Of a stretch of 64,000 nucleotides of DNA, positions 13,954 to 52,800 are shown piece by piece. The notes under the pieces are model-generated. The model saw only the letters and a list, made by a program, of their open reading frames with translations, had not been told where the DNA came from and ran no database searches. The translations under genes were made by a program, and so were the position numbers. This DNA comes from a virus (taxonomy: Duplodnaviria; Heunggongvirae; Uroviricota; Caudoviricetes), in IMG/VR virus record IMGVR_UViG_3300040801_004519, positions 69,231 to 133,230 of that record, one strand, 5' to 3'. Each line of letters opens with the position of its first letter. Position 1 is the first letter of the stretch.

Positions 13954-15078
13954 ATGGCCGAGCTTATCGTACAGTCACGTAAAATTGACAAGGTTATTGA
14001 TCATCCCAACGCTGATCGTTTAGATTTAGCCAAAATTGGGGGATGGTCCTGCGCCGTCCCAAAGGGGAGTTATCAAGCTGGTGACCTCATTGTGTATATA
14101 CCACCGGATAGCCTCGTTCCTGAGAGCTTATCAGATGAGTTCGGCTTCACCAAGTATTTGTCAAATGGTCGCGTCCGTGCGCAAAAACTTCGTGGATACC
14201 CTTCTTACGGTGTGATTGTTCCAAATAAATGGAACTTCTCGGAAGGCGAAAACGTTGCTTCTGCCCTTGGAATTACGAAGTATGAGCCTCCAGCAAGAAA
14301 TGTTGGTTCACGATCTGGATCGAGTGGTCACCTTCCAGATCATCCAAAACTTCCGAAGTACACCAGCATCGAGAATCTTCGACACTATGACACAGTGTTT
14401 GAAGATGGCGAGGAAGTGGTTGTTACGGAGAAAATTCATGGTACAAACAGCCGCGTAGCCATGATCGATGGAACTTTGATGGCTGGTTCAAGGCGGCTGC
14501 TTTGGAAGTTCCCAACCAAAAAAGTTAAGAAGGAAGTTTCATTCCTCAAAAGTCTGTTATTGAAGATTCTTGGGAAACCACATCCAACGGTAGATGTCGA
14601 TGATGTTGGTGCTGCCAAGCAAAGCTGGGTATGGTCCCCCGTAACAAATGACAACGTGTTGAATCTCCTTTACTCGAAAGGGTCGAATGGTGGCTCTGAC
14701 ATCATACTCTTCGGTGAAGTTTACGGAAGTTCGGTCCAAAGAGGCGTTTCTTATGGTGAAAAGAACTCGTTAGGTTATCGTGCTTTTGATGCAATGGTGA
14801 ATGGACAATACTTAGATTATGATGATTTTCGTTCACTATGCGATGATTTTGATGTTGAAACCGCGCCCTTGCTCTATCGTGGCCCCTTCTCCCTTGAAAA
14901 GATAGAAGAGCTTTCTCATGGAGATACTACCATCGGAAATGACAAGCACATACGAGAAGGTGTAGTTGTTCGACCAGTATCTGAGAGGCATAGCGATCAA
15001 GTCGGAAGAGTCATAATGAAGTATGTAAGCGACGAATACCTACAAAGCAAAAACATTGGTGATTTTGAAGACAATTAG
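13954..15078 (+). CDS. ATP-dependent RNA ligase, Rnl2/Rnl5-like nucleotidyltransferase with N-terminal extension
   Basis: Motif I EKIHGTN (lysine-adenylate motif in the KIHGTN form seen in T4 Rnl2 and RNA-editing ligases); downstream ILFGEVYG (motif IV-like) and REGVVVRP; about 150 aa N-terminal to motif I as in DraRnl/Rnl5. Confidence 0.6.
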   Translation: MAELIVQSRKIDKVIDHPNADRLDLAKIGGWSCAVPKGSYQAGDLIVYIPPDSLVPESLSDEFGFTKYLSNGRVRAQKLRGYPSYGVIVPNKWNFSEGENVASALGITKYEPPARNVGSRSGSSGHLPDHPKLPKYTSIENLRHYDTVFEDGEEVVVTEKIHGTNSRVAMIDGTLMAGSRRLLWKFPTKKVKKEVSFLKSLLLKILGKPHPTVDVDDVGAAKQSWVWSPVTNDNVLNLLYSKGSNGGSDIILFGEVYGSSVQRGVSYGEKNSLGYRAFDAMVNGQYLDYDDFRSLCDDFDVETAPLLYRGPFSLEKIEELSHGDTTIGNDKHIREGVVVRPVSERHSDQVGRVIMKYVSDEYLQSKNIGDFEDN

Positions 15079-25112: not shown

Positions 25113-25427
25113 ATGCCAGTCAAAGGAAAGAAGCTTACGTCGAAGTCTAAGAAGAAGCCCTCTAGCGAGAGTAAATCTAAACCTCTTGTGAGGATGGTTC
25201 AGTCACTTGAAGACTATGTGAGGATCAACATCTCAGTGGGTAAAGGTGAAACTTTGAAAGTTGCTAGACTCTGGAAAAATGGTGATCGCACCTTTTTCAG
25301 GTGCAACGTGTGGAAAGAATTGGGCCACGGGCAGTCACTTGTCCAAAATCACACAATATCCAAGTCATACTTCGTATCAGTGGACGAAGTAAACGAAAGC
25401 GAAAGAGTTTTCACTATTCATGATTAG
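25113..25427 (+). CDS. hypothetical basic protein
   Basis: Lys-rich N-terminus; 104 aa. Confidence 0.35.
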   Translation: MPVKGKKLTSKSKKKPSSESKSKPLVRMVQSLEDYVRINISVGKGETLKVARLWKNGDRTFFRCNVWKELGHGQSLVQNHTISKSYFVSVDEVNESERVFTIHD

Positions 25428-26476
25428 CCTTGGTGCTGACCCACAAGCTCTTCTGGCTTGTTATCGCTAGCAGGAATAGGCTTTTCGTCTTGCCTGATGG
25501 ACGTTGTAACTCGATCCACAATTGCCGCAAGGAATGTCTCGTCCTTTACGGATGCCGAGAGGGCGATCTCCCGAGCCGTATTTGTTATTTGCTGTTTTGC
25601 TTCGGAGAGCATTTCGAACGCATCATCGAAGTCTTGCAATGCCTTTGCCAACTTGGCCTCCAGGCTGCCTTCGCTAACGCCAGTCAAATGAGGCCCGTTG
25701 GCAAAGAGGATTCTCCGAGCTTCCTGTAGCTCAGCGGTGCCACCCTGATTCTCTGGAGTCTGGTCGTTGCTGGCATGACCGTTTAGGTGCGGCTCTCCGT
25801 TCAAGTTGCTTCCCTTGCTTCGCGTAGCAGGTGGTGGAGCATTCATGTCAACTTGGCGAGGAACAATTCTTTCGTTGATGGCTCCCAAGATAACGTTCGG
25901 GTTGGGGGCTTCGACTTTCGCCAAGGTTGTTAGTTCTGGCATATACCCATCACCTTGAAGTTTTCGCACACACTTGATGACCTGTAATGCTTCCTTCTTT
26001 GTGAGGATCACGAGGCCAGCTTGAGAGACTAAGTGGTGAAGTTTCGGATTCTTGTGAATCATCCGTTGAGATCGCCCAGCGGTTTTATCCGACTTGTAAA
26101 CGAAGGCTTCTGATATGGATTCCGTGAAGCTAGTCAAGCCGGGCTTCCCAGATGTAAATCGGAGATAGCCAGGGTCCATTAGCACGGTTTTGGCCAATTC
26201 TGCTTCGTCTGCCACAATGTACATTTTCTTCTTCCCCTCTTGGAGTGCTTCTTCGAGTTCTTCTTCAGATAGTCCGCCGGATGGATTCTGCACGGTTCGA
26301 TCTTTCCAAAGATGGATTGAATCGATGTCCCTCTTCTCTGTTTTTCCACCGTGCCTTTGGGGCTTGATCTCCAGCGTCGTGTCGTTGAGGACTTGAATTA
26401 AAAGACCTCTTCCGAAGTGCTGTTCGCCATTTTCCTTCAACCTGTCCCGCACATATATCTGCTTTCCAGTATCCAA
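25424..26476 (-). CDS. hypothetical protein (only long minus-strand gene inside the + block)
   Basis: 350-aa ORF, tail-to-tail with the 25113 gene and divergent from the 26619 gene. Confidence 0.45.
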   Translation of the reverse strand: MDTGKQIYVRDRLKENGEQHFGRGLLIQVLNDTTLEIKPQRHGGKTEKRDIDSIHLWKDRTVQNPSGGLSEEELEEALQEGKKKMYIVADEAELAKTVLMDPGYLRFTSGKPGLTSFTESISEAFVYKSDKTAGRSQRMIHKNPKLHHLVSQAGLVILTKKEALQVIKCVRKLQGDGYMPELTTLAKVEAPNPNVILGAINERIVPRQVDMNAPPPATRSKGSNLNGEPHLNGHASNDQTPENQGGTAELQEARRILFANGPHLTGVSEGSLEAKLAKALQDFDDAFEMLSEAKQQITNTAREIALSASVKDETFLAAIVDRVTTSIRQDEKPIPASDNKPEELVGQHQG

Positions 26477-26618
26477 AAGGGTTTGCCAGATCGGAGCGGG
26501 GAATGTTTTCGTTGAGTTAGCCGATAAGTTTAATGTAGTTATCCTGTGGGTTCTACGAGTTGGGGGTCGATAATAGCAGTCCTGTTTGCCGCTGGCAAGC
26601 TGAACAAAAGAGAATGTC
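26477..26618. promoter_or_regulatory. divergent intergenic region with palindrome TTGCCGCTGGCAA (26586-26598)
   Basis: 142-bp gap between divergently oriented genes; near-perfect inverted repeat TTGCC/GGCAA. Confidence 0.3.
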
Positions 26619-27311
26619 TTGAGAATCTACAGACTCAGCAAGCAACCTGACCCGATCACCTACGTTCGCGTGGTGATGGCAAGGGTTAGCCACATATCGG
26701 AAGAAATGGCCAGCATTGGCAAAATTCGATGCTCTCAGCATGAACGTGATAGACTTGAAGCCATCCCAGATGTTCTGGGAGATGCTTGGCTTGAGATTCG
26801 ATCCTCTGTCTCCGATCTGAGTGGCCATGGCAGGTTTTCAAAAAAACACGCCCTGCAAGTTCGCGCAGCCCTTTCTGTCGGTATCAAGCTGACACAAGGG
26901 TGTTTTGACCTCATTCACAAGCTCCTCGAAGATGGTGTCCCTAAGGCATCTCGTCACTATTTGAAACGCACCTTACGCTGTGCTTTTGTCCGCTGTCAAC
27001 CTCATGAGGCCGAGCCAACAGATCAGTTTGTCCTGAACATGTTGGCCAATATTGCTTCTGGTCCATGTAAAAGCCTTGAGGGGCTTCTTGTAGGGGATGT
27101 CGATCCCCTATCTCATCTCAAGGTCAATGATGCCCTTGAACGTGGCCTTGTCAAGAGGATGGGGCAATTTTATGCGATGACAGGGAGCGGTTTGGAGACC
27201 CTGCTTGATGAGGCTGCCTACACTAGGGGATTGTCGCACTTGCTGTCAGACCAATCGGTTGAAACCAAAAATCTTTACTTCAAAGGACTCAAAGGAAACA
27301 ACAATGTCTAG
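26619..27311 (+). CDS. hypothetical protein
   Basis: 230-aa ORF. Confidence 0.35.
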   Translation: MRIYRLSKQPDPITYVRVVMARVSHISEEMASIGKIRCSQHERDRLEAIPDVLGDAWLEIRSSVSDLSGHGRFSKKHALQVRAALSVGIKLTQGCFDLIHKLLEDGVPKASRHYLKRTLRCAFVRCQPHEAEPTDQFVLNMLANIASGPCKSLEGLLVGDVDPLSHLKVNDALERGLVKRMGQFYAMTGSGLETLLDEAAYTRGLSHLLSDQSVETKNLYFKGLKGNNNV

Positions 27312-28173
27312 AAAATTTACAGGTGTAAAATGGCTTATCGAACGGTGTGCATTTGATGACCAAAATCCCCGAAAAATTGAAGAGTACCTTAAATCCATAG
27401 GTTTTCCTTGCTATTTTGCGAACTTCCATGGTTTTGGTAGCTACGAGCTACTTGGTCCAGCAAACGAGGAGCTAGGGAAAGAAGACTGTGTTGTTTGCTA
27501 CGCTACGATTGGCCTTGCACGCAAGTTACAGCGAGACAAAGCGTGGCATCCGTTGGCGTGGGTGGACTGGAAGATTTTTGAATGTACCCACTATTACCCC
27601 GTTTTCGCTCAGCATCTTATTGCTTCAAGATACATGATGATGCCTTTGGGAGAGATTCCCCGCCAAAAGGAATTTATATACGATACGCTCGGCATTGATG
27701 GTAAAGTATTTTTCCGACCTAATGACAATGAGAAGAGCTTTGCTGGCGAAGTTGTTCACTTCGATAGTTTTGACAAATGGTACTCATTAGCCAATATATA
27801 TGATCCAGGCAAGAGTTGCCTTTCCGTTGCTGCTCAGGTAGAAAGTATTCATTCTGAGTATCGAGTGATGGTCGCAGATCAAGAATTTTTAACTGGAAGT
27901 CGCTACCGTCTCAAAGGGGAGGTTCACTTAGATTCCGCCGTTCCTCAAGAGGTTTCTGATTTTGCCGTGATGCTTTCGAGAATTGCTGAAGAAAAATTCC
28001 CAGAATTGCCTTGTCTAATTTGCTTTGATATCGGAGTAACAGATAGAGGGCCAAAGTTGATTGAGATATCGTCTGCTAATACCAGCGGATTATACGAGAG
28101 CGACATGAAGGCCTTTGTCGATGTGGCGAACCGCATCGCAGAGAGAGAATGGCGAGACCTTTACGAGATTTAA
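27304..28173 (+). CDS. hypothetical protein
   Basis: start at ATG 27304 overlapping the previous stop (ATGTCTAG). Confidence 0.4.
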   Translation: MSRKFTGVKWLIERCAFDDQNPRKIEEYLKSIGFPCYFANFHGFGSYELLGPANEELGKEDCVVCYATIGLARKLQRDKAWHPLAWVDWKIFECTHYYPVFAQHLIASRYMMMPLGEIPRQKEFIYDTLGIDGKVFFRPNDNEKSFAGEVVHFDSFDKWYSLANIYDPGKSCLSVAAQVESIHSEYRVMVADQEFLTGSRYRLKGEVHLDSAVPQEVSDFAVMLSRIAEEKFPELPCLICFDIGVTDRGPKLIEISSANTSGLYESDMKAFVDVANRIAEREWRDLYEI

Positions 28174-28905: not shown

Positions 28906-28976
28906 AGATTTTGAGCAAAAAAAATCCGATACAAGGATTGACGGCTGAGGCGATAGCCGGTAAACTCTCGCCAATC

Positions 28977-29050
28977 GCTTCGGTAAGACTCAATGGTAGA
29001 GCTAGTTTTTCTAAAAAACTTGGTTGCAGGTTCGAATCCTGTCCGAGGCA
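28977..29050 (+). tRNA. tRNA with anticodon CUA (amber-suppressor type); D-arm irregular
   Basis: Acceptor stem GCTTCGG/CCGAGGC (7 bp, one G-U); perfect 5-bp anticodon stem AGTTT/AAACT with loop TTCTAAA (U33, anticodon CUA, A37); T-arm GCAGG-TTCGAAT-CCTGT with canonical GGTTCGAATCC; no encoded CCA; the D-arm folds only with a mismatch and extra nucleotides. Confidence 0.55.
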
Positions 29051-29148
29051 CTTGAACCTCGATTATTTTCAAAGGATAATCGAGGTTCAGTTTCGATTTG
29101 ATCTAAAGTTTTGCAAGCTGGTTAACCGATAATAATATTGTGACTTAG

Positions 29149-29517
29149 ATTTTTACTGACACTCGGGTCAAGCCTGCTACTCCGTACATTTACGCAGTAG
29201 TCCGAACAGACCTTCCATTCCCATCGCAAGCCGTTCAGGCTTCGCATGCTGTCTTAGAATCAACAAGACAAGGGATAGTCCCCCTTTCGGGAGATCATCC
29301 TCATCTAATCATCTGCGGTGTTGCAGATGAGATTTCTTTGCTGCGCTCGCTTGAGAAAATAAAATCTCAGGGAGTACGCTGCTCTTTGTTTCGTGAAGCC
29401 GATCTTGGGGATCAGGCTACGGCGTTTGCCAGCGAAATCGTAACGGGAGATGCTCGTCGCATCTTTCGAAAATTCAAATTACTTAAAGGCCCACCCGCTC
29501 TTTCCCCTGTCTCGTGA
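29149..29517 (+). CDS. PTH2-family peptidyl-tRNA hydrolase-like ORF lacking a canonical start codon
   Basis: Translation gives ...YIYAVVRTDLPFPSQAVQASHAVLE...HLIICGVADEISLLRSLEKIKSQGVRCSLFREADLGDQATAF..., matching the PTH2 pattern VVxRxDLxMxxGKxxAQxxHA and the later V.DE..L..L...A...GL...L..DAG block; the frame opens right after a TAG at 29146-29148 preceded by GTG 29140; absent from the ORF track because the ATG/GTG/TTG-initiated part is under 60 aa. Confidence 0.45.
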   Translation: MFTDTRVKPATPYIYAVVRTDLPFPSQAVQASHAVLESTRQGIVPLSGDHPHLIICGVADEISLLRSLEKIKSQGVRCSLFREADLGDQATAFASEIVTGDARRIFRKFKLLKGPPALSPVS

Positions 29518-29554
29518 CAGTGGCGAGGGTGGGTATTTTTATTGGAGAAACACA

Positions 29555-30922: not shown

Positions 30923-32980
30923 ATGAACAACAATAATAACAAAGATGTCGAAGTCAATCAAGAAGCGGAAGAGCGGCGAAAAGAGGAGGCCGCAAAAAAC
31001 ATCGATTTCGATTTGCTAAATGGCGGCTCAGGATTCGAAGAAATCAAAGATTTTGGAGACCGAACCACTGTATTGAAAATCATCAAAGAACGAAGGCAAC
31101 GGCTTGCTTCGGCTTCCCAAAAGCTAAAAGAGAAGTTTGTTGGTCTTGATGATATAATTGACCAAATTATTCGGAACATCGAAGTCTGGTATGTAATGCC
31201 AGAAATTGTAGCTCGCCCGGTGATAGTCAATCTTTGGGGAATGACGGGTGTGGGTAAGACTGACTTAGTGCGAACTCTTGTTAGAGAGTTGAAGCTAGGT
31301 TCAACTTTTCATGAGATTCAGCTTTGTCACAATGGATCATCAAGTGGTGGTTCATCCGCATTGCGTGATGAGCTAGGTAAGTCCAATCTTGATCCTGAAC
31401 ATCCTGGAGTTCTTCTTCTTGACGAGATGCAAAGATTTCGTACCGTTGACAACAACGGTGATGAAATGCATGATTACAAGTTTCAGGACTTATGGGCACT
31501 CTTGAGCGATGGACGTTTTACTGGAGACACTGATAGAGACTCTCTAATCAGATTAATTCTGGAAGACATTTATTGGGATTATGGAGTTGTCAAATATAAG
31601 GACGAGGACGAAGACGACGAAGAAGAAGAGGAAAAGTCTAAGGTTGTATACAAGAACGGTTTTCGAAGAGGATATCAAAGCGCTCGTCTCCTAAAAAGAC
31701 AGCTTAGGCTCAAGGAACCGATTAATGAAATCATGACTTGGGACAACCAGCGTAAGCTTCAGGTTGCTACCGAAAAATTTGCAGATGATTCGACATACGA
31801 AGGACTTGACTATTCCAAGCTTCTAATCTTCATCTCAGGCAACTTGGACGAGGCGTACCAAATGGCTGGCGACTGTGAAGATGCAGATCGTGATGCTGAT
31901 GTTCTGCATGCATTCTCGAAACAGATCAATGTCATCGATATTAAAAGGGCATTAACAAAACGATTTAAGCCAGAACAAATAAGCAGATTCGGAAATACTC
32001 ATGTTATCTACCCTTCACTTGATCGCGGAAGCTATGAACACCTAATTCAGCGATCACTTGATCAGATTTCTTCCAAAATGAGTGAACGTCATGGTTTTAA
32101 TATTTCATTCGATGAAAGCGTAAATGTTTTTGTTTACAGGAATGGGGTTTACCCATCTCAGGGTGTTCGTCCGCTCTTCTCCACCATAGCTTCAAAGATT
32201 GAAAATTCAATCCCACAATTCGTCTTGAAAGGGCTGGAAGAGAATGTCTTGAACTTTTCCATCTTCCACAAGGATGAAAAACTGGTTGCAGTTACAGATT
32301 CGGGCACGACTTTGGACAGCCTCGTTTGCAACGGAGACCTTGACAAGATTAAGGAAGGCCGAGACGACGATTCTCGTTCGATGATTGCTGCCCACGAAGC
32401 TGGCCATGCTGTTCTTTATGCAGTGTACTATGGTTATTCGCCAACCGAAGTAACTGCAAGCCTCTCTGGCTGGAATGGAGGTTATGTTGCCCCTCACAAT
32501 TTTAACCAAGAAACGCCTGAAGTTTTGAAGAACAAGATAAGGGTATATCTTGGCGGACGAGCTTCTGAACAAATCTTTTTTGGTGACGGGGTAGTAACAA
32601 CTGGTGGATGGCATGACATAAGCAGCGCGACATCAATCGCATCCTCGATGGTACGTCGTTACGGAATGGATCACACTACTGCAACCGTTCGGTCTGAAAC
32701 TTGGAACAATGCTTCAGAATCTGTGAACTTAAACAGCGAAAAGGTCAACGAGAGGATTGAAGAGATTGTAAACTCTGCCCAAGGAGAAGCCATTGATCAT
32801 CTTAAGGAACACATTCCTCTTCTAAAAGAAGTCGCTAAAAAGTTGTACCATGATGGCCGTATAGAACCGAAGACATTTGCTGACATTTGCAATAATCATG
32901 GTTTGAGTGTTGTTGTTTCCGAGAATGAAAGTATCTCGGTACAAAAATATTTAAAGAAGTTTGAAGAGTTTGTAGGATAA
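30923..32980 (+). CDS. soluble AAA ATPase fused to FtsH-type (M41) zinc metalloprotease domain
   Basis: Walker A GMTGVGKTDLVRTL, Walker B LLLDEMQ; C-terminal AAHEAGHAV (HExxH), LGGRASEQIFFG and TTGGWHDISSATSIASSMVRRYGMD parallel FtsH HEAGHA / GGRAAE / TTGA..D..AT.IA..MV..YGM; no N-terminal transmembrane segment. Confidence 0.6.
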   Translation: MNNNNNKDVEVNQEAEERRKEEAAKNIDFDLLNGGSGFEEIKDFGDRTTVLKIIKERRQRLASASQKLKEKFVGLDDIIDQIIRNIEVWYVMPEIVARPVIVNLWGMTGVGKTDLVRTLVRELKLGSTFHEIQLCHNGSSSGGSSALRDELGKSNLDPEHPGVLLLDEMQRFRTVDNNGDEMHDYKFQDLWALLSDGRFTGDTDRDSLIRLILEDIYWDYGVVKYKDEDEDDEEEEEKSKVVYKNGFRRGYQSARLLKRQLRLKEPINEIMTWDNQRKLQVATEKFADDSTYEGLDYSKLLIFISGNLDEAYQMAGDCEDADRDADVLHAFSKQINVIDIKRALTKRFKPEQISRFGNTHVIYPSLDRGSYEHLIQRSLDQISSKMSERHGFNISFDESVNVFVYRNGVYPSQGVRPLFSTIASKIENSIPQFVLKGLEENVLNFSIFHKDEKLVAVTDSGTTLDSLVCNGDLDKIKEGRDDDSRSMIAAHEAGHAVLYAVYYGYSPTEVTASLSGWNGGYVAPHNFNQETPEVLKNKIRVYLGGRASEQIFFGDGVVTTGGWHDISSATSIASSMVRRYGMDHTTATVRSETWNNASESVNLNSEKVNERIEEIVNSAQGEAIDHLKEHIPLLKEVAKKLYHDGRIEPKTFADICNNHGLSVVVSENESISVQKYLKKFEEFVG

Positions 32981-32984
32981 CGAA

Positions 32985-33392
32985 ATGGGTTGTACATTCA
33001 TTGATCTAGACGGAACCATCTTTAAGCATGGAACTAACAGCCTTCTTCCAGGTGCCCAAGAACTTCTTGAGTCCATTGAAAATGAAGGCCATGAAATCAT
33101 ATTTACTACACGTCGTGGAGATCGGGAGTTCAAAGATCACCCAGTGTATAATGCAGATTCTGCACGATTAGCAGTACGAGGCCTCAGAGTAGACTATAAA
33201 GAATTGATACTTGATGTAAGCAGTCCCCGTGTCGTTATAAATGATCAGGGTGCAGTTGGCATTAACCATCTTTATAACAACGATTGGTCTACTGAAGATA
33301 TTGAAGCTGCCCTTTATGCACTTGATCATGGCAAGCCAAAAAATAAAAAGGAAGACAATGTTAACTCTATTCAGCCAGAAGAAAGTGATTAA
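32985..33392 (+). CDS. small HAD-like phosphatase
   Basis: MGCTFIDLDGTIF (DxDGT motif I). Confidence 0.45.
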   Translation: MGCTFIDLDGTIFKHGTNSLLPGAQELLESIENEGHEIIFTTRRGDREFKDHPVYNADSARLAVRGLRVDYKELILDVSSPRVVINDQGAVGINHLYNNDWSTEDIEAALYALDHGKPKNKKEDNVNSIQPEESD

Positions 33393-33400
33393 GTATTATA

Positions 33401-33985
33401 ATGTTTAGTAAAATGCAGTCTACCATGGCCGCTGGCCTTGTGCTTCTTGTACCAGTTGTTGTAACTTTGTATACCGTTATCCTTGCATTTAAGATACTTG
33501 ATGGATGGACAGAATGGGTTGGAATCACAACCCCAGGAGTAGGCATTGTTCTTCTGATCCTTTCAATATTCGGGGCTGGTCTTTTTGCAAAGAATTTCAT
33601 TGTGTCTCGATTAGTTCATTTTGGTGGAGGGGTACTTCACAGAATACCAGCCGTTGGATGGGTCTATTCTACTGTCAAAGAGGCTTGCGAAGCTCTATTT
33701 AGTGCAGATGGCAAAAAACTTGGTGAGCCTGTATATGTTCGAATTCCAAATGGTTGGGTTTTAGGATTTAGGACAGGGGAAAGCCCTCGAAGTCTTCCAG
33801 AGAACAGTGATGTTCCAAATCCGATGGGTGCTGAATTTGAGACTGTACTTGTCATGTGGGCATTTAGTGCTGGATCAGGTGTTACTGTCGAAGTTAATAA
33901 GCGTGACATAGTATCTGCAAACATGTCTACTGATCAAGCCCTAAAACATACCCTGACGGCTGGGGTTGTGGGTAATTCGAAATAG
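33401..33985 (+). CDS. membrane protein (DUF502-like)
   Basis: two N-terminal TM helices followed by IPAVGWVYSTVKE resembling the DUF502 conserved block. Confidence 0.35.
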   Translation: MFSKMQSTMAAGLVLLVPVVVTLYTVILAFKILDGWTEWVGITTPGVGIVLLILSIFGAGLFAKNFIVSRLVHFGGGVLHRIPAVGWVYSTVKEACEALFSADGKKLGEPVYVRIPNGWVLGFRTGESPRSLPENSDVPNPMGAEFETVLVMWAFSAGSGVTVEVNKRDIVSANMSTDQALKHTLTAGVVGNSK

Positions 33986-38828: not shown

Positions 38829-39347
38829 ATGCACATTGCATTCTTTAGAGCTAGAAAAGGTAAGCTTGTAGATTGGTTAATCGATCTTTTTACAGGCCTG
38901 AAGGGCTTTAGCCATATGGAGCTTGTGTTTTCTGATGGACAATGTTTCTCTGCTCAAAAAGGGGACAAGGGAACTAGGTATAAAAATGTTGACTTTGATG
39001 CAGCTTCCTGGATCATTATTCCTCTAACCGTAACAGACGAACAAGAAGTTGTTATTCGATCTTTTTGTGATTCTGTATTGGGAAAAGAATACGATATCTG
39101 GGGTGCTTTAGGAGTAATCCTTCCATTCCGAAATCGAAAGGGAAAATGGTTTTGTAGCGAAGTTGTTGTTACCGCATTACAGGAAATAGGGATGTATGAG
39201 GGTATTGATCCAGCAAAAGTTGACCCCAACTGGTTGTGGGAAAAAGCAACTTCTGGTGTTTATCTAAACTCCAGCAGAATACTGCATGAAGATTGCCACT
39301 TTGGAAGTCTGAAGTCACAGGATATTAATGATATCTCTCCAGAGTGA
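38829..39347 (+). CDS. hypothetical protein (possible permuted papain-fold/NlpC-P60-like hydrolase)
   Basis: start at in-frame ATG 38829; His...Cys order (HMELVF ... WFCSEVV) suggests a permuted thiol-hydrolase; weak. Confidence 0.3.
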   Translation: MHIAFFRARKGKLVDWLIDLFTGLKGFSHMELVFSDGQCFSAQKGDKGTRYKNVDFDAASWIIIPLTVTDEQEVVIRSFCDSVLGKEYDIWGALGVILPFRNRKGKWFCSEVVVTALQEIGMYEGIDPAKVDPNWLWEKATSGVYLNSSRILHEDCHFGSLKSQDINDISPE

Positions 39348-39496
39348 CGATATATAGATTAGTTGGGAGATAAAAAACTTCTATATCGCTTGCGGCTTTT
39401 TCTACTTTTTAAAGTAGAGCCGAACGAGGGGGTTGATGTAGATAGTTTCCCATCTAGGCCCTCCTGATGCAGGAGATGGTTCGTCTCAAAACCCCC

Positions 39497-49528: not shown

Positions 49529-49879
49529 TTATTTCTTAGCTCTAGAGCATCCACAGCCTTTCTTCTTTTTTGTGCTTGCAGAACCAAGCCTGACACCAGA
49601 CTGATTTGCCTGTTTTGTTCCGATTGGCTTGGACGCTTTTGGCGATGTACCGCCCTCAATAAAGCTTTTCCCAAACGGACACTCAAAGTCTACCTCGTTG
49701 TTGGGTAACACATAGAGTGAAGATTGAGACTTCCTCCACTCTCTACCTCCAACCCGATCTCTACATGTGTTGCAATGTGCTTCACTTCTACAGTGAAAGC
49801 TTCTAATGAATTCAGGTTTCTGTTTTGGCTCGCTCATAGAGTTATCTTTCTCATTTATTCTCTTCTTCTCCTTCAGCAA
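49529..49879 (-). CDS. small basic Cys-rich protein
   Basis: 116 aa; CRSEAHCNTC ... FECPFG ... GCGC; overlaps the 3' end of the giant gene by 29 nt. Confidence 0.35.
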   Translation of the reverse strand: MLKEKKRINEKDNSMSEPKQKPEFIRSFHCRSEAHCNTCRDRVGGREWRKSQSSLYVLPNNEVDFECPFGKSFIEGGTSPKASKPIGTKQANQSGVRLGSASTKKKKGCGCSRAKK

Positions 49880-52800
49880 GGAGAGCTTCTATATCATCGG
49901 CATTCCGCATCATCTTTGCCAAAAGTTTAGGTGATGACCCGTTCCATATGCCACTGTTGACCCTGCCGTTATTATCAACATAGAAGAACCTGACTTTGCC
50001 ATCTCCAATTATTGTGGCACTCGGATTTGAGGGGCTAATAGACATCCTAAAATCCATGATAAAGTCTTCTGGATACGGCATTCTTATCGAGCCATCTTTT
50101 GGAAGGCTTTCTATGTCTCCAGCTATGAAGATAGGAGTGCTTCCCTTCTCGCTGTTCAAGTATTCAGCCATTGTTGGAGAGCCGACGACCCCGCTAGGAA
50201 TGTATTTCATAAACAAGAGTGAATCATCTGATACGTAGAATACAAATGTTTCATCTGTCTTGTCGTCATAGACGACATCTGCTAATCCACTTCCCTTGAT
50301 ACCTATTCCAGTTTTCCATGTGAAGCCACCATCCATGCTATAGAAGTGCTCGATAGTTGCAGAGGTTCTGCTTAACGGCTCCTCTTCGTCGCCTTTTGCC
50401 CGCCCGCAGCGACCATCAAGCTCTTCATGTTCAATTTCATGCTTTTCTTCATCGAAGATATCAGGCTGACTCTCGGATATTGTTCCAATAGCATCCCCAT
50501 TACACATGCTACAGTTCATCCTAAAGATACCATTGGGAGGACAAACGTCATGGCATCCATCAGCCTTCTTGAAAAGAGTCCATTTGTGTTCTCGACTAGC
50601 AAGAATCCAGTAGTCTCTTTCCTTGTATAAAGTCCACTTTTCTTTATCCTTTGCTTTCCACACTGCATAACCAGCATATTTATCGCGATCTTCGAACTCT
50701 GGATTTCCGTCTCTATCTTCACCCACCTTAACTGGAACCTGCCCTGGTTCAAGCCCTTCAAGCTCAAAAGCTCCTGAAAATGTAGAGCATGGACATCTTT
50801 CATCAATGATGCCAGACACATTCAAAGTTATATCTTTAATGTCACAATATTCCGTTAACTCGTCGTCTCTATCTCTTATGGGCTGACCCTTGGGCGTAAA
50901 TTCATCGATGTTCTCGCCTGTATACCGCAGAGGGTCAAAATTAGGATGAGAAGCTCCCCCGCTACCTCTTGAGCCTCGCTTCCAAACTCTAACAATACCT
51001 TTCTGATCAACATAAGAATGTATTGCTTGACCCGATTCAAAACCAAGGGATTCTCCATTATAACCAGTTCCATCTGGGTTCATTCCTATATATCTAGGAA
51101 CTAGTGTTGGCTCTTTATACGATGATCTTTCTCTAGTAGCGAGAACTTCATCATGCTCTATTTCTCCAGCAATTACATATGAAGAAGTCATTCTCAGATC
51201 AATACCATCTTGGCTGAACTGTTCAAGATGATAATCATTTGGTTCATCAGGTTTGAAGTACTGAGGTCTTTCATACTTTACAAATGCATCGAGTGATATG
51301 AGCTTATTTGTGTCAATTCGTTTCACGCATGTTGATACAAAATTTCCTCTGTCTCCTGATTCCTCTGAAGAAAGCTCTCCTCTGATGTTTACACCATGAG
51401 TTCTTTTGAAGTACAATATAATACTGTTACTTTTGTAATCAGGAATAGCTAACGGCGACGTAAGGTTTTCCCAATTTACTGTTCGTACGATAGATTTATG
51501 GTCTTCCCATGTTTTCCCTAAATCGCGGGAGACCAAAACGCTTATGTCTGAATTCTTTTGATAACATACATCTGAAACACTGGACTCTTCGAGCATTGTG
51601 TTTTCAAAATACTTTGGTTTATTGCATGACCTAAAACCCTCAGTTGGCAGCCAACAATGCTGTGTATCTATTTGAGCACTATCCCAGTGTGATCCATAAA
51701 ATAGCACATATTCTGTACCATCCAAGTCCGTCATAATAACCTCTACGGTCCACCTTCCCTCTTCCTCGATTACCGAAACTTCAACAGGAAGCAGAAGCAT
51801 TACTGGTTTTTCACAGTTATAATCACAAGCAACAGCACTTACCCTTATCGCGGTTTGTCCTGTCCACTTGGTAGAGTCGTCACAGTCTCTGATAACGCAA
51901 ATAGGACCAAGAGTTCTTGTATCAAAAACAAGCTTGCCCTGTGGATCATCCAACTCTTCGTCATCTTCTTCGCTCTTTACCTTATCTTCAGTTTGACATC
52001 CGTGACAGTATCGAGCATACTTGCCTTCTGTAATGATGTTCGAAAGGTCAATGGTGAAGTGATCATGTCTTCTAGTCCCGACATCTTTGCAATTGAAGTT
52101 GTATAGTTCTCTGTCACCACAACCTATGCTGCTGCTGCTTTCAGAACTAAAGCTGCTGCAAGACTGCGAGCTTTGGTCACTAAATCCTCCACTGGATTCA
52201 TCCGAAGTCAGACCGTCGCTAAGGCCACCACTTGTTTCTGGGTCAGTGCTGAAGCCGCCGCTGCTGTCGTCGCCGTCGCCAGTGCCTCCACCGCCACCGC
52301 CGCCTCCTCCACCACCGCCGCCACCGCCGCCACCGCCCCCTCCACCCTTGTTGTGGACAGCAATGCCTCCTGCGAAGAAAGTATTGTCTCCGTCAACGGT
52401 AAGATTAAACACCGTAGCCTCCTCAGCTTCCTCAACAGACAAGATCATGGTTGGAATGAGGTCTGCATCAAACCGGTATACTATTGTTTCTGGTACAAGG
52501 TACTTAGCCTTGGTATATCCGTGATCTGTTAAAAACGGGTGATCAGGAGAAACTTGAAGAGTCTCGTTGCTTGTTTGTATTTTTATTGTAGAAGATGAAA
52601 GTTTTGAAAATGTCTTAGAAACCTTTCCCTTACTTACCTTCCCTTCCTCATTGTGGGTGTAGACTTCATCGCCAACCCGGATTTTTTCAATATCAACATC
52701 TCCATTGAGGGTTGAGACTTTTGTTTTAGCGACGAAACAACCTCCACCTCCACCCCCACCGCCACCACCGCCGCCTCCCCCTCCACCTTTATTGTGGACA

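What the first reader, a model, noticed from the sequence alone, without database searches (positions are those of the whole stretch)
28977..29517. Amber-suppressor-type tRNA(CUA) directly upstream of a PTH2-like peptidyl-tRNA hydrolase ORF that opens on an in-frame TAG
The tRNA-like gene at 28977-29050 has a clean acceptor stem, a perfect anticodon stem and a canonical T-arm. Its anticodon is CUA, which would read UAG. Ninety-five nucleotides downstream lies an unlisted reading frame whose product carries the PTH2 peptidyl-tRNA hydrolase signature (VVRTDL...AVQASHA). That frame has no ATG/GTG/TTG ahead of the conserved N-terminal block. It opens at ATT 29149 right after a TAG (29146-48), with GTG 29140 two codons before that TAG. 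Three readings fit: GTG-initiated translation that depends on the neighbouring suppressor tRNA reading through the amber codon; a non-canonical AUU start; or a decaying gene. A suppressor tRNA paired with a peptidyl-tRNA hydrolase points to a translation-manipulation module, for example stop-codon recoding of selected genes or rescue of stalled ribosomes, and not to global recoding, since other genes in the window terminate at TAG.
Basis: partly seen in the sequence, partly recalled or inferred. Interest (0 to 1): 0.75.

Follow-up and report, generated by a model that had tools for sequence, protein, structure and literature searches.

The report
Suppressor tRNA gates its partner hydrolase
A phage carries a tRNA that reads the stop codon UAG next to a small tRNA-hydrolase gene whose third codon is UAG, so the gene is probably translated only when that tRNA works; the same pair recurs in dozens of diverse phage sequences, giving the unexplained suppressor tRNAs of giant phages a dedicated target.

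Summary
A tRNA(CUA) lies at 28977-29051. Ninety-five nt downstream is an intact 122-codon PTH2-fold ORF with no canonical start. It is preceded in frame by GTG-ACT-TAG.

This is one copy of a conserved two-gene cassette. Among 48 non-redundant phage and MAG homologues (28-50% identity), 38 carry an in-frame TAG 2-10 codons after a start codon, and 2 carry TGA. A metagenome set gave 36 TAG, 6 TGA and 1 TAA among 66. The chance rate for this layout is about 3%.

A suppressor tRNA usually lies within 1 kb on the same strand. Its anticodon always matches the gate: TAG with CUA 30/30, TGA with UCA 4/4. The base after the stop is a purine in 40/40.

Isolated standard-code jumbo phages carry the cassette too (Serratia BF, Yersinia fHe-Yen9-03, Ralstonia RsoM2USA, Xanthomonas XacN1). 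There the gene is unannotated or its leader is missed, and published papers call the suppressor's targets unknown.

Best reading: hydrolase synthesis depends on the suppressor. Decay, an AUU start and global recoding are rejected. What the hydrolase does, and which amino acid is inserted, remain unknown. I found no prior description. The window's tRNA has an aberrant D-arm.

The parts
28938..28966 (+). Promoter-like site TTGACG-17 nt-TAAACT, ending 10 nt before the tRNA
   Evidence: Consensus scan, 9 of 12 matches. Weak evidence: 4 sites were found in the region against 2.3 expected.
28977..29051 (+). tRNA with anticodon CUA (amber suppressor type), with an aberrant D-arm carrying 2 extra nt
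   Evidence: ARAGORN. Rfam tRNA 33.2 bits against a gathering score of 29, with the insertion shown in the alignment. Cassette tRNAs in other loci score 50-68 bits.
29052..29090 (+). 18-bp perfect hairpin directly after the tRNA, followed by TTTCGATTTG. Could be a terminator, an attenuator or a processing element; role unknown
   Evidence: Terminator-like scan hit. Fold of 29046-29160: -31.5 kcal/mol, z = -3.5.
29140..29148 (+). Leader and gate: GTG ACT TAG (fMet-Thr-amber), followed by A (ATT)
   Evidence: Sequence. GTG is the only canonical start in the open frame between TAA 29104 and the TAG. It fits the family consensus M-T-TAG-purine.
29140..29517 (+). Complete amber-gated gene: 125 codons including the leader and the TAG, ending at TGA 29515-29517
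   Evidence: It is the top TAG gate-like candidate in the window.
29149..29514 (+). Coding sequence of the PTH2-fold domain (122 aa); structured core is residues 13-106
   Evidence: 865 HMMER relatives. Alignment with invariant R, Q, H, D, T, R. AF2 pLDDT 92.3. Foldseek top hits are all Pth2. Profile match to PDB peptidyl-tRNA hydrolases.
29493..29543 (+). Terminator-like hairpin enclosing the TGA stop, followed by UAUUUUUAUU
   Evidence: Fold of 29484-29552: -27.1 kcal/mol, z = -2.8. Not reported by the simple scan because the loop is structured.

Best explanation
The region 28938-29543 is one copy of a conserved phage cassette with two parts. One is a nonsense-suppressor tRNA. The other is a small PTH2-family hydrolase gene whose reading frame is gated by the stop codon that this tRNA reads.

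Proposed mechanism: ribosomes start at GTG 29140, add Thr, and meet UAG at codon 3. Without an active suppressor, only a dipeptide is made. When the neighbouring tRNA(CUA) is transcribed, processed, charged and outcompetes RF1, the UAG is decoded and the 122-residue hydrolase is produced. Hydrolase output therefore tracks suppressor activity, as an AND gate or feed-forward link.

The gate lies in the disordered N-terminal tail, so any inserted amino acid should be tolerated and failed attempts cost almost nothing.

The product most likely cleaves an ester at a tRNA 3' end (peptidyl- or aminoacyl-tRNA). It would either clear by-products of read-through or tune the suppressor itself.

Shown here: the anatomy, the conservation of the gate, the match between gate codon and anticodon, the physical linkage, and the PTH2 fold. 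Inferred: actual read-through, the enzyme's activity and substrate, and the direction of the loop.
For: 1. The gate is conserved. Among 48 clusters (80% identity) from IMG/VR, GenBank phages and MAGs, 38 are TAG-gated, 30 of them with no alternative start, and 2 are TGA-gated. In 66 non-duplicate metagenome loci, 36 are TAG-gated, 6 TGA and 1 TAA. The background rate of this layout in 506 other ORFs of the same loci is 3.0%, giving P about 6e-34.

2. Gate codon and anticodon match. 30 of 30 TAG-gated clusters with a suppressor in the flank have CUA. TGA-gated L012, L021, L081 and L122 have UCA. There are no mismatches; Fisher P = 2e-5. Homologous leaders differ only in the stop: MSGFV/L-TAG with tRNA(CUA) against MSGFA/V-TGA with tRNA(UCA).

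3. Linkage. The suppressor is on the same strand, often 25-200 nt upstream or 7-700 nt downstream of the gene. In many loci it is the only tRNA within 6 kb.

4. Context. The base after the stop is a purine in 40 of 40 cases; P about 3e-8. From my own knowledge of the classic amber context effects, this context favours suppression.

5. No second recurrently gated gene family exists in 0.9 Mb around the cassettes. No third universal gene exists either.

6. Standard-code isolates have the cassette. Serratia BF has MTH-TAG with tRNA(CUA) 3.3 kb away. Yersinia fHe-Yen9-03 has MSH-TAG. Ralstonia RsoM2USA has ML-TAG and one tRNA(CUA) according to PMC8504454. XacN1 has MK-TAG ahead of an N-domain-PTH2 fusion. 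Huge phage LR756511.1 has MTH-TAG with tRNA(CUA) 8.2 kb upstream.

7. PTH2 fold and motifs.

8. The window copy fits the consensus (M-T-TAG-A) and keeps all invariant residues.
Against: - There is no direct evidence of read-through, and the inserted amino acid is unknown.
- The window's tRNA is the weakest of the set: 33 bits, with a 2-nt insertion and a mismatch in the D-arm. This copy may be impaired.
- The window leader starts with GTG and has no Shine-Dalgarno motif. Most genes in this window also lack one.
- The Lys that I recall as catalytic in archaeal Pth2 falls in a 2-residue deletion and is Gln in this family. The chemistry or substrate may therefore differ.
- About 8 of 48 clusters are ungated, yet 5 of those still sit beside a suppressor. 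Gating is therefore not obligatory for the partnership.
- Clusters are phylogenetically related, so the counts overstate independence.
- An 18-bp hairpin between the tRNA and the gene could stop transcription.
Confidence: 0.75

Rival explanations
1. Same gating, with a specific role for the product. The hydrolase acts on the suppressor tRNA itself by deacylating or de-peptidylating it. Read-through would then produce its own inhibitor, a negative-feedback governor that holds suppression at a set point while tRNA gene dosage rises during replication. The analogy, from my own knowledge, is the in-frame UGA of prfB, the AUU start of infC, and antizyme.
For: - The recoding signal is self-referential and sits in a translation-related gene.
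- The gene sits beside the suppressor even in phages with 10-20 other tRNAs.
- Ungated copies still sit beside suppressors.
- RsoM2USA and XacN1 each carry a separate annotated aminoacyl- or peptidyl-tRNA hydrolase, so the gated paralogue looks specialised.
- The active-site region differs from canonical Pth2.
Against: No evidence on substrate. A brake on suppression seems counter-productive for phages that need efficient read-through of late genes. General peptidyl-tRNA recycling explains the fold equally well.
Confidence: 0.3
2. Termination-reinitiation or a non-canonical start. The 2-4 codon leader is an upstream mini-ORF, and ribosomes restart at the next codon (AUU 29149) or at AUU 29188 without any suppression.
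For: - ATT follows the stop in the window and in 10 of 40 clusters; GTA or GTT follows in 16.
- Strong Shine-Dalgarno motifs precede many leaders.
- Gene callers place many starts near the position aligned to I14.
Against: - The stop identity tracks the neighbouring anticodon, which reinitiation does not predict.
- TAA is almost never used: 1 case.
- Post-stop codons such as AAC, ACC, GGT, AAG and AGC cannot initiate.
- The 'MYV...' database starts proved to be truncated gene calls of gated genes.
Confidence: 0.06
3. Decaying gene: a chance nonsense mutation near the start of a PTH2-like gene that happens to lie beside a tRNA.
For: The window's tRNA has a defective-looking D-arm. The window start is GTG without a Shine-Dalgarno motif.
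Against: - The ORF is intact over 122 codons with all invariant residues, and the model is confident.
- The early stop is the majority state across homologues at 28-50% identity.
- The chance rate is 3%.
Confidence: 0.03
4. Whole-genome TAG reassignment (genetic code 15). The gene would be just one of many recoded genes of a TAG-recoded phage.
For: - Suppressor tRNA(CUA) is the hallmark of such phages (10.1101/2021.08.26.457843).
- Two metagenomic homologues have a second in-frame TAG inside the domain (L078, L080).
- The rest of this phage's genome is not in the window.
Against: - Standard-code ORFs cover 94% of the window. TAG-as-sense gains no more than TGA or TAA. 23 of 114 long ORFs end in TAG. 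Same-frame ORF pairs split by TAG are no more frequent than those split by TAA or TGA.
- Cassette flanks show no TAG-specific gain.
- The TAG sits at one fixed N-terminal position rather than scattered.
- Isolated phages with the cassette are annotated in the standard code.
Confidence: 0.1
5. Pyrrolysine system, as ARAGORN's label 'tRNA-Pyl' suggests.
For: Only the CUA anticodon.
Against: The tRNA has GG in a 7-9 nt D-loop, a 5-nt variable loop and a 5-bp anticodon stem. From my own knowledge, tRNAPyl has none of these. The cassette tRNAs are 52 different ordinary class-I sequences. No Pyl genes appeared among the 20 window proteins scanned.
Confidence: 0.01

Closest known systems
'Code-change module' of stop-codon-recoded gut phages (suppressor tRNA + aminoacyl-tRNA synthetase + release factor; Borges et al., preprint 10.1101/2021.08.26.457843)
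   Same: A phage-encoded suppressor tRNA makes translation of genes with in-frame stops depend on the phage's own tRNA. The module itself is written in the standard code.
   Different: That paper does not mention a hydrolase: 'peptidyl', 'hydrolase' and 'PTH' each occur 0 times. Its targets are many late and lysis genes with scattered in-frame stops. Here there is one dedicated partner gene with a single stop at codons 3-11, it also occurs in phages that otherwise use the standard code, and no aaRS or RF is universally linked.
Archaeal/eukaryotic peptidyl-tRNA hydrolase Pth2 (Pfam PF01981; PDB 1xty, 2zv3, 3erj, 1q7s) and the PTH2 genes noted in jumbo phages by Iyer et al. 2021 (PMC7824862)
   Same: Same fold (Foldseek E = 1.7e-7 to 4e-5, TM 0.6-0.7). 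Shared motifs V-R-x-D-L, A/V-Q-x-x-H-A and the Asp before the penultimate strand. [quoted passage not shown]
   Different: This is a divergent subfamily. The window protein scores below the Pfam cut-off. There is a 2-residue deletion, with Gln where Pth2 has Gly-Lys. Iyer et al. do not mention the in-frame stop or the link to suppressor tRNAs: 'suppressor' occurs 0 times.
Autoregulatory recoding in translation-factor genes: prfB (in-frame UGA, +1 frameshift) and infC (AUU start). Cited from my own knowledge.
   Same: A gene for a translation-related protein carries, near its start, a signal whose decoding depends on the state of the translation machinery.
   Different: Here the stop is read in frame by a dedicated, co-located tRNA, not bypassed by a frameshift. 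Whether the product feeds back on the decoding event is unknown.
Synthetic amber-suppressor feed-forward gates (Ho et al., NAR 2021, PMC7969014)
   Same: A suppressor tRNA plus an amber codon early in the target gene forms a coherent feed-forward AND gate that removes leaky expression (abstract seen).
   Different: That system is engineered. The cassette described here would be a natural counterpart, and its target is a tRNA-directed enzyme.
Lambda bar minigenes and Pth. Cited from my own knowledge.
   Same: Two- to three-codon mini-ORFs ending in a stop are known sources of peptidyl-tRNA drop-off that Pth must clear. The leader here is such a mini-ORF and lies in front of a PTH-like gene.
   Different: The bar minigenes are not fused in frame to a hydrolase gene and have no link to suppressor tRNAs. 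The relevance is speculative.

Membership tests
PTH2 peptidyl-tRNA hydrolase (PF01981) | Scores above the Pfam gathering cut-off (23 bits) | tested here: not met
   The window protein scores 18.9-19.1 bits, E about 0.002. 22 of 29 relatives match at E < 0.01, the best at 7e-9. XacN1 ORF364 scores 25.3 bits and P0123 scores 31.5 bits, both passing. The family overlaps PTH2; the window member is sub-threshold.
PTH2 peptidyl-tRNA hydrolase (PF01981) | Pth2 alpha/beta fold | tested here: met
   AF2 model pLDDT 92.3, pTM 0.83. Foldseek against the PDB: ranks 1-13 are all Pth2 chains (2zv3, 1wn2, 3erj, 1q7s, 1rlk, 1xty), probability 1.00.
PTH2 peptidyl-tRNA hydrolase (PF01981) | Conserved active-site Asp (D86 of S. 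solfataricus Pth2; numbering from my own memory) | tested here: met
   The invariant Asp (D85 of the 122-aa product) aligns with the D of the D-A-G motif in 24bt_A and AF2095.
PTH2 peptidyl-tRNA hydrolase (PF01981) | Active-site Lys in the G-K segment before A-Q-x-x-H-A (K18 of S. solfataricus Pth2; from my own memory) | tested here: not met
   The profile alignment shows a 2-residue deletion, with Q-Q (S-Q in the window) where Pth2 has g-K.
PTH2 peptidyl-tRNA hydrolase (PF01981) | Hydrolyses peptidyl-tRNA | not testable with these tools
   Needs an enzyme assay or complementation of a pth(ts) mutant.
Nonsense-suppressor tRNA | tRNA cloverleaf recognised by independent predictors, with an anticodon complementary to a stop codon | tested here: met
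   ARAGORN gives anticodon CTA. Rfam RF00005 scores 33.2 bits, above the gathering score of 29.
Nonsense-suppressor tRNA | Canonical D-arm and tertiary core | tested here: not met
   There is a 2-nt insertion after position 9 and an A-C first D-stem pair. The cloverleaf is not the minimum-free-energy fold of the D region. Sister cassette tRNAs score 50-68 bits.
Nonsense-suppressor tRNA | Is aminoacylated and decodes UAG in vivo | not testable with these tools
   Only indirect support: a cognate gated gene beside it, and gate-anticodon covariation across loci.
Stop-codon-recoded phage (genetic code 15) | Many genes, especially late ones, interrupted by in-frame TAG; coding density rises when TAG is read as sense | tested here: not met
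   Window: standard-code coverage is 0.94, and the gain from TAG-as-sense is no larger than from TGA or TAA. Same-frame ORF pairs split by TAG: 5, against 4 for TAA and 3-4 for TGA. Only 64 kb of a probably much larger genome could be tested.
Pyrrolysine decoding system | tRNAPyl architecture and pylS/pylBCD genes | tested here: not met
   The tRNA has ordinary loop sizes and G18-G19. No Pyl genes appeared among the 20 window proteins scanned. The gene search was partial.
Suppressor-tRNA / stop-gated PTH2-like cassette (defined in this report) | PTH2-like ORF without its own start, preceded in frame by a start codon, 1-9 sense codons and a stop, followed by a purine | tested here: met
   The window has GTG-ACT-TAG-A. 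The family pattern is shown.
Suppressor-tRNA / stop-gated PTH2-like cassette (defined in this report) | Suppressor tRNA with the matching anticodon on the same strand nearby | tested here: met
   The window tRNA(CUA) ends 94 nt before the TAG. The family shows 30/30 CUA and 4/4 UCA matches.

The most novel reading that the evidence does not exclude
The suppressor tRNA and its stop-gated PTH2-like hydrolase form a self-regulating unit. The enzyme would act specifically on the suppressor tRNA, or on its peptidyl or aminoacyl form, to set the level of stop-codon read-through. This cassette would be the ancestral seed from which full stop-codon reassignment in phages evolves: a phage first acquires a safely governed suppressor with one dedicated target, and only later lets in-frame stops spread to late genes.
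Probability: 0.25. Interest if true: 0.92.

Novelty: new variant of a known kind. Interest (0 to 1): 0.85.

Why it matters
1. It names a concrete, conserved target for the suppressor tRNAs of standard-code jumbo phages. The XacN1 and RsoM2USA papers state explicitly that no target could be identified.

2. It adds a component, a divergent PTH2-fold hydrolase, to the machinery linked with stop-codon suppression in phages. That component is absent from the published 'code-change module'.

3. It would be a natural AND gate or feed-forward device built from a tRNA and one codon, matching a design that synthetic biologists arrived at independently (PMC7969014).

4. It makes testable how phages tolerate or control a suppressor in a standard-code cell, and so how code change can begin.

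5. It exposes a systematic annotation error.
   - The gene is unannotated in Serratia BF, Yersinia fHe-Yen9-03, Ralstonia RsoM2USA and six Erwinia phages.
   - It is truncated in many database entries.
   - It is silently translated with code 15 in others.

Tried and rejected
- **'TAG stands for Gln.'** Database homologues start MTQI, MTHQI and MGFTQV where gated genes have MT#I, MTH#I and GFT#V, which looked like CAG/TAG exchange. Fetching the DNA showed TAG at those positions. The source pipelines had translated with code 15. The inserted amino acid is therefore unknown.
- **'Many homologues start at a Met aligned to I14, so ATT 29188 is a mutated start.'** The sampled MYV/VYV entries are truncated gene calls of gated genes.
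- **tRNA identity by nearest neighbour.** Comparing each suppressor with the other tRNAs of its phage gave no consistent isotype.
- **Finding the source genome or close relatives.** An exact-protein look-up failed. An exact tRNA pattern in IMG/VR found nothing. Single-protein scans found nothing. Megablast against GenBank phages found nothing. The word-indexed protein search found nothing.
- **Theta (HDV-like) ribozyme or another Rfam family beside the tRNA.** None found.
- **A third conserved cassette gene.** None found; neighbours are lineage-specific.
- **A second gated gene family.** None found in 0.9 Mb. In the window, the next-best TAG candidate is the minus-strand ORF ending at 25424, with TAG at 26629; it has no supporting evidence.
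- **Y RNA beside the Ro-like gene.** None found.
- **First alignment too diverse.** Alignment A1 was too diverse for locus finding. The narrower alignment A2 worked.
Full report
**1. The observation**

ARAGORN finds a single tRNA in the 64-kb window, at 28977-29051 on the + strand, with anticodon CTA. Rfam's tRNA model also matches, at 33.2 bits against a gathering score of 29. The acceptor, anticodon and T arms are regular.

The D-arm is not regular. Infernal needs a 2-nt insertion after position 9 and an A-C first pair. ARAGORN draws a 3-nt linker with a mismatched stem.

Downstream, the frame 29149-29517 is open for 122 codons. Its first canonical start is TTG at 29338. Upstream in frame lie TAA 29104, then only GTG 29140, ACT, and TAG 29146.

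The window is phage-like and mostly one-stranded. It encodes an RNA ligase, a DNA ligase, a polymerase, a sliding-clamp-like protein, a Ro-like protein and an FtsH-like protease. No close relative exists in IMG/VR or GenBank phages.

**2. The protein**

Pfam PTH2 is sub-threshold for the window protein: 18.9 bits against a cut-off of 23. The word-indexed protein search found nothing. An exhaustive HMMER search found 865 relatives, the best at E = 3e-25, mostly 95-140 aa long.

The family has invariant R, Q, H, D, T and R residues, and the window protein keeps all of them. 22 of 29 members hit PTH2 at E < 0.01.

An AlphaFold model built with a 12-sequence alignment has pLDDT 92.3. Its 13 best PDB matches are all Pth2 proteins. 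A family profile matches solved peptidyl-tRNA hydrolases. The motifs V-R-x-D-L and V-Q-x-x-H-A and the Asp align. The G-K segment of Pth2 is deleted, with Gln in its place.

This is therefore a divergent PTH2-fold subfamily. Its activity is not established.

**3. The key result: the early stop is conserved**

The best GenBank hit is a 595-kb uncultured phage, LR756511.1. Its gene reads AAGGAG...ATG ACT CAC TAG GTT..., that is M-T-H-stop followed by the conserved domain.

Isolated jumbo phages show the same pattern:
- Serratia BF: M-T-H-TAG
- Yersinia fHe-Yen9-03: M-S-H-TAG
- Ralstonia RsoM2USA: M-L-TAG

In these records the region is unannotated. XacN1 and its relatives fuse an extra N-terminal domain to the PTH2-like domain. 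They carry MK-TAG, MNLA-TAG or MSFT-TAG just upstream of the annotated ATG, and the residues after the stop (T-I-x-x-M-K) are conserved.

A degenerate-pattern scan of IMG/VR gave 64 loci. A scan of GTDB genomes gave 5, all Planctomycetota-type MAGs, including a complete 8.3-Mb Rubripirellula chromosome. A metagenome scan gave 168 relatives, of which 80 were kept.

| Set | Non-redundant units | TAG-gated | TGA-gated | TAA-gated |
|---|---|---|---|---|
| IMG/VR + GenBank phages + MAGs (80% identity clusters, incl. window) | 48 | 38 (30 with no alternative start) | 2 | 0 |
| Metagenome loci | 66 | 36 | 6 | 1 |

L072 and L076 were reclassified as TAG-gated by eye. The remaining 8 clusters in the first set are ungated.

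In 506 other long ORFs of the same loci, the same layout occurs at 3.0% for TAG, 2.0% for TAA and 4.2% for TGA. This gives P about 6e-34 for the enrichment.

Other properties of the gate:
- The leader is 2 codons in 20 of 40 clusters, 3-4 codons in 15, and 7-10 codons in the remaining 5.
- The base after the stop is a purine in 40 of 40 (P about 3e-8).

The window's GTG-ACT-TAG-A fits this consensus.

**4. Linkage to suppressor tRNAs, and covariation**

ARAGORN on the loci finds a suppressor-type tRNA on the same strand. It is typically 25-200 nt upstream or 7-700 nt downstream of the gene, and is often the only tRNA in 12 kb.

Every TAG-gated cluster with a suppressor in the fetched flank has anticodon CUA (30/30, plus 18/18 in the metagenome set). 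The TGA-gated genes L012, L021, L081 and L122 have UCA. There are no mismatches; Fisher P = 2e-5.

Closely related leaders differ only in the stop: MSGFV/L-TAG with tRNA(CUA), against MSGFA/V-TGA with tRNA(UCA).

Where the fetched flank lacked a suppressor, one was found further away:
- BF: 3.3 kb away.
- LR756511.1: 8.2 kb away.
- RsoM2USA: one tRNA(CUA) according to its paper.

The tRNAs are 52 different sequences. They score 50-68 bits on Rfam's tRNA model.

No third gene is universally linked. No other gene family is recurrently gated in 0.9 Mb. The flanks show no sign of TAG reassignment, and neither does the window.

**5. Interpretation**

The conserved early stop, its match to the neighbouring anticodon, and the purine context are what one expects if the hydrolase is translated only by suppression. 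Decay, reinitiation or an AUU start, and global recoding each fail at least one of these observations (see the rival explanations).

Placing the gate at codons 3-11, in a tail that the model shows as unstructured (pLDDT 68 for residues 1-10), means that failed attempts yield only a di- to decapeptide. It also means that any inserted residue should be tolerated.

I therefore conclude that the window holds a suppressor-dependent expression switch for a PTH2-fold enzyme. What the enzyme does is inferred only. Two options remain open:
- It clears tRNA-linked by-products of read-through. Some cassette neighbourhoods also hold tmRNA, an ArfB-like RF-1-domain gene or peptide deformylase.
- It governs the suppressor itself. 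This is favoured by three observations. The position beside the suppressor holds even in large tRNA arrays. Ungated copies also sit next to suppressors. RsoM2USA and XacN1 each carry a separate, ordinary aminoacyl- or peptidyl-tRNA hydrolase.

**6. Caveats for this window**

- Its tRNA is the least canonical of the set.
- The leader starts with GTG and has no Shine-Dalgarno motif, although only 14 of 37 genes in the window have even a weak one.
- An 18-bp hairpin with a T-rich tail separates the tRNA from the gene.
- A promoter-like site precedes the tRNA, and a terminator-like hairpin closes the gene. The unit looks self-contained, but transcription was not tested.

**7. An error caught**

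Database homologues seemed to have Gln where gated genes have TAG. The underlying DNA has TAG; the proteins had been translated with code 15. Apparent 'MYV...' starts are truncated gene calls. The inserted amino acid is thus unknown, and nearest-neighbour comparison of the tRNAs is uninformative.

**8. Prior knowledge**

Full-text searches of the held library found no paper that links a PTH2 or peptidyl-tRNA hydrolase gene to a suppressor tRNA or to an in-frame stop.

- The stop-codon-recoding preprint defines a module of tRNA, synthetase and release factor and never mentions a hydrolase.
- The jumbo-phage survey notes PTH2 but not suppressors.
- The theta-ribozyme paper and the 2026 jumbo-phage paper do not mention it.
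- A crAss-like phage paper lists an aminoacyl-tRNA hydrolase gene without comment.
- The XacN1 and RsoM2USA papers state that the targets of their tRNA(CUA) are unknown.

The library lacks most subscription journals, so a prior description cannot be excluded.

**9. Verdict**

It leads to a widespread, apparently undescribed cassette. I class it as a new variant of a known kind (phage suppressor-tRNA-dependent gene expression) and score its interest as high.

Noticed in passing
window 40052-41767 (+): Ro60-like RNA-binding protein: PHROG 850 at E = 4e-82, and 40-42% identity to actinophage 'Ro-like RNA binding protein'. Ro proteins normally pair with a Y RNA, but a permissive Rfam scan of 39200-42000 found none. 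GC is locally higher, 0.51.
   Followed up: partly
window 25424-26629 (-): The only sizeable minus-strand ORF in a plus-strand block, in a stretch of raised GC (0.47-0.48). Its frame stays open for 51 codons upstream of the first canonical start, up to a TAG at 26629 that has TTG and GTG just before it. It is the second-best 'amber-gated' candidate in the window. It has no Pfam hit, and homology was not checked.
   Followed up: partly
window 30923-32980 (+), 27304-28173 (+), 32985-33985 (+): Neighbours of the cassette: an FtsH-like protein (AAA + ClpB-D2-small + peptidase M41), an R2K-clade ATP-grasp protein, a short HAD-like protein and a DUF502 protein. No aminoacyl-tRNA synthetase or release factor appeared among the 20 proteins scanned.
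   Followed up: no
window 13954-15078, 46789-48105, 49851-55598 (-): RNA ligase (PHROG 968), ATP-dependent DNA ligase and a 1915-aa minus-strand ORF with a helicase-like segment. Gene orientation and GC skew both flip near 49.5 kb.
   Followed up: no
L085 2400-2860 (metagenome contig Ga0265319_1015034): The closest metagenomic relative of the window protein (43% identity, E = 2e-30) has a TAA gate (V-M-L-TAA-I-A-T-K-Y-V-Y). This is the only ochre-gated case seen. No tRNA lies on the 3-kb contig, so an ochre suppressor (UUA) could not be checked.
   Followed up: no
L078 97-453, L080 831-1181, L082 ~440-842: Some family members carry two in-frame TAGs. The second lies either in the loop before the H-P-H motif (L078, L080) or in a doubled leader, MSGFV-TAG-GSGFT-TAG (L082, L083).
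   Followed up: no
L025 788-1150, L030 1021-1374; L083 90-509; L081 6130-6645: Other translation-rescue or translation-processing genes lie near some cassettes: phage-encoded tmRNA about 5 kb upstream, a 139-aa RF-1-domain (ArfB-like) protein 2 kb upstream, and peptide deformylase 2 kb downstream.
   Followed up: no
L076 (Rubripirellula sp. chromosome OZ244207.1, 3278686-3286973) and L072-L075: In 185,579 GTDB species genomes, the pattern scan confirmed only 5 relatives of this gene. Four are Planctomycetota MAGs, one of them a complete 8.3-Mb chromosome; the fifth (L074) is an unclassified 'uncultured bacterium' MAG. All five are TAG-gated (four with a G-F-T-TAG-V leader, L074 with M-N-G-L-TAG-N), and four have a tRNA(CUA) 0.5-0.9 kb away. 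Whether these are prophages was not examined. It hints at a Planctomycetota host for this window's phage.
   Followed up: partly
GenBank records KY630187.1, LT960552.1, MG752970.1, MW879342-4, MT939486-8; protein database entries P0022, P0026, P0121, P0004, P0008, P0029: Systematic annotation problems. The gated gene is not annotated in several isolated jumbo phages. In public protein sets it is either truncated to an internal GTG or ATG, or translated with TAG = Q by code-15 gene calling. PHROG 34073 (77 positions) looks like such a truncated family.
   Followed up: yes
L084 4333-4404: Directly downstream of a TAG-gated gene (M-S-H-TAG) sits a tRNA whose backbone resembles the tRNA(CUA) of L009, but its anticodon loop is aberrant; ARAGORN reports the anticodon as 'ca'. 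It may be a degenerate suppressor copy.
   Followed up: no
P0114; L002 4464-5303 (XacN1 ORF364), L010, L018: Fusions of an N-terminal domain to the PTH2-like domain. Pfam detects an HD phosphohydrolase domain in P0114. The N-terminal domain of XacN1 ORF364 gives no Pfam hit but contains H...HD-like motifs. In XacN1 a GatB/YqeY-type 'glutamyl-tRNA amidotransferase' gene lies four genes upstream.
   Followed up: partly
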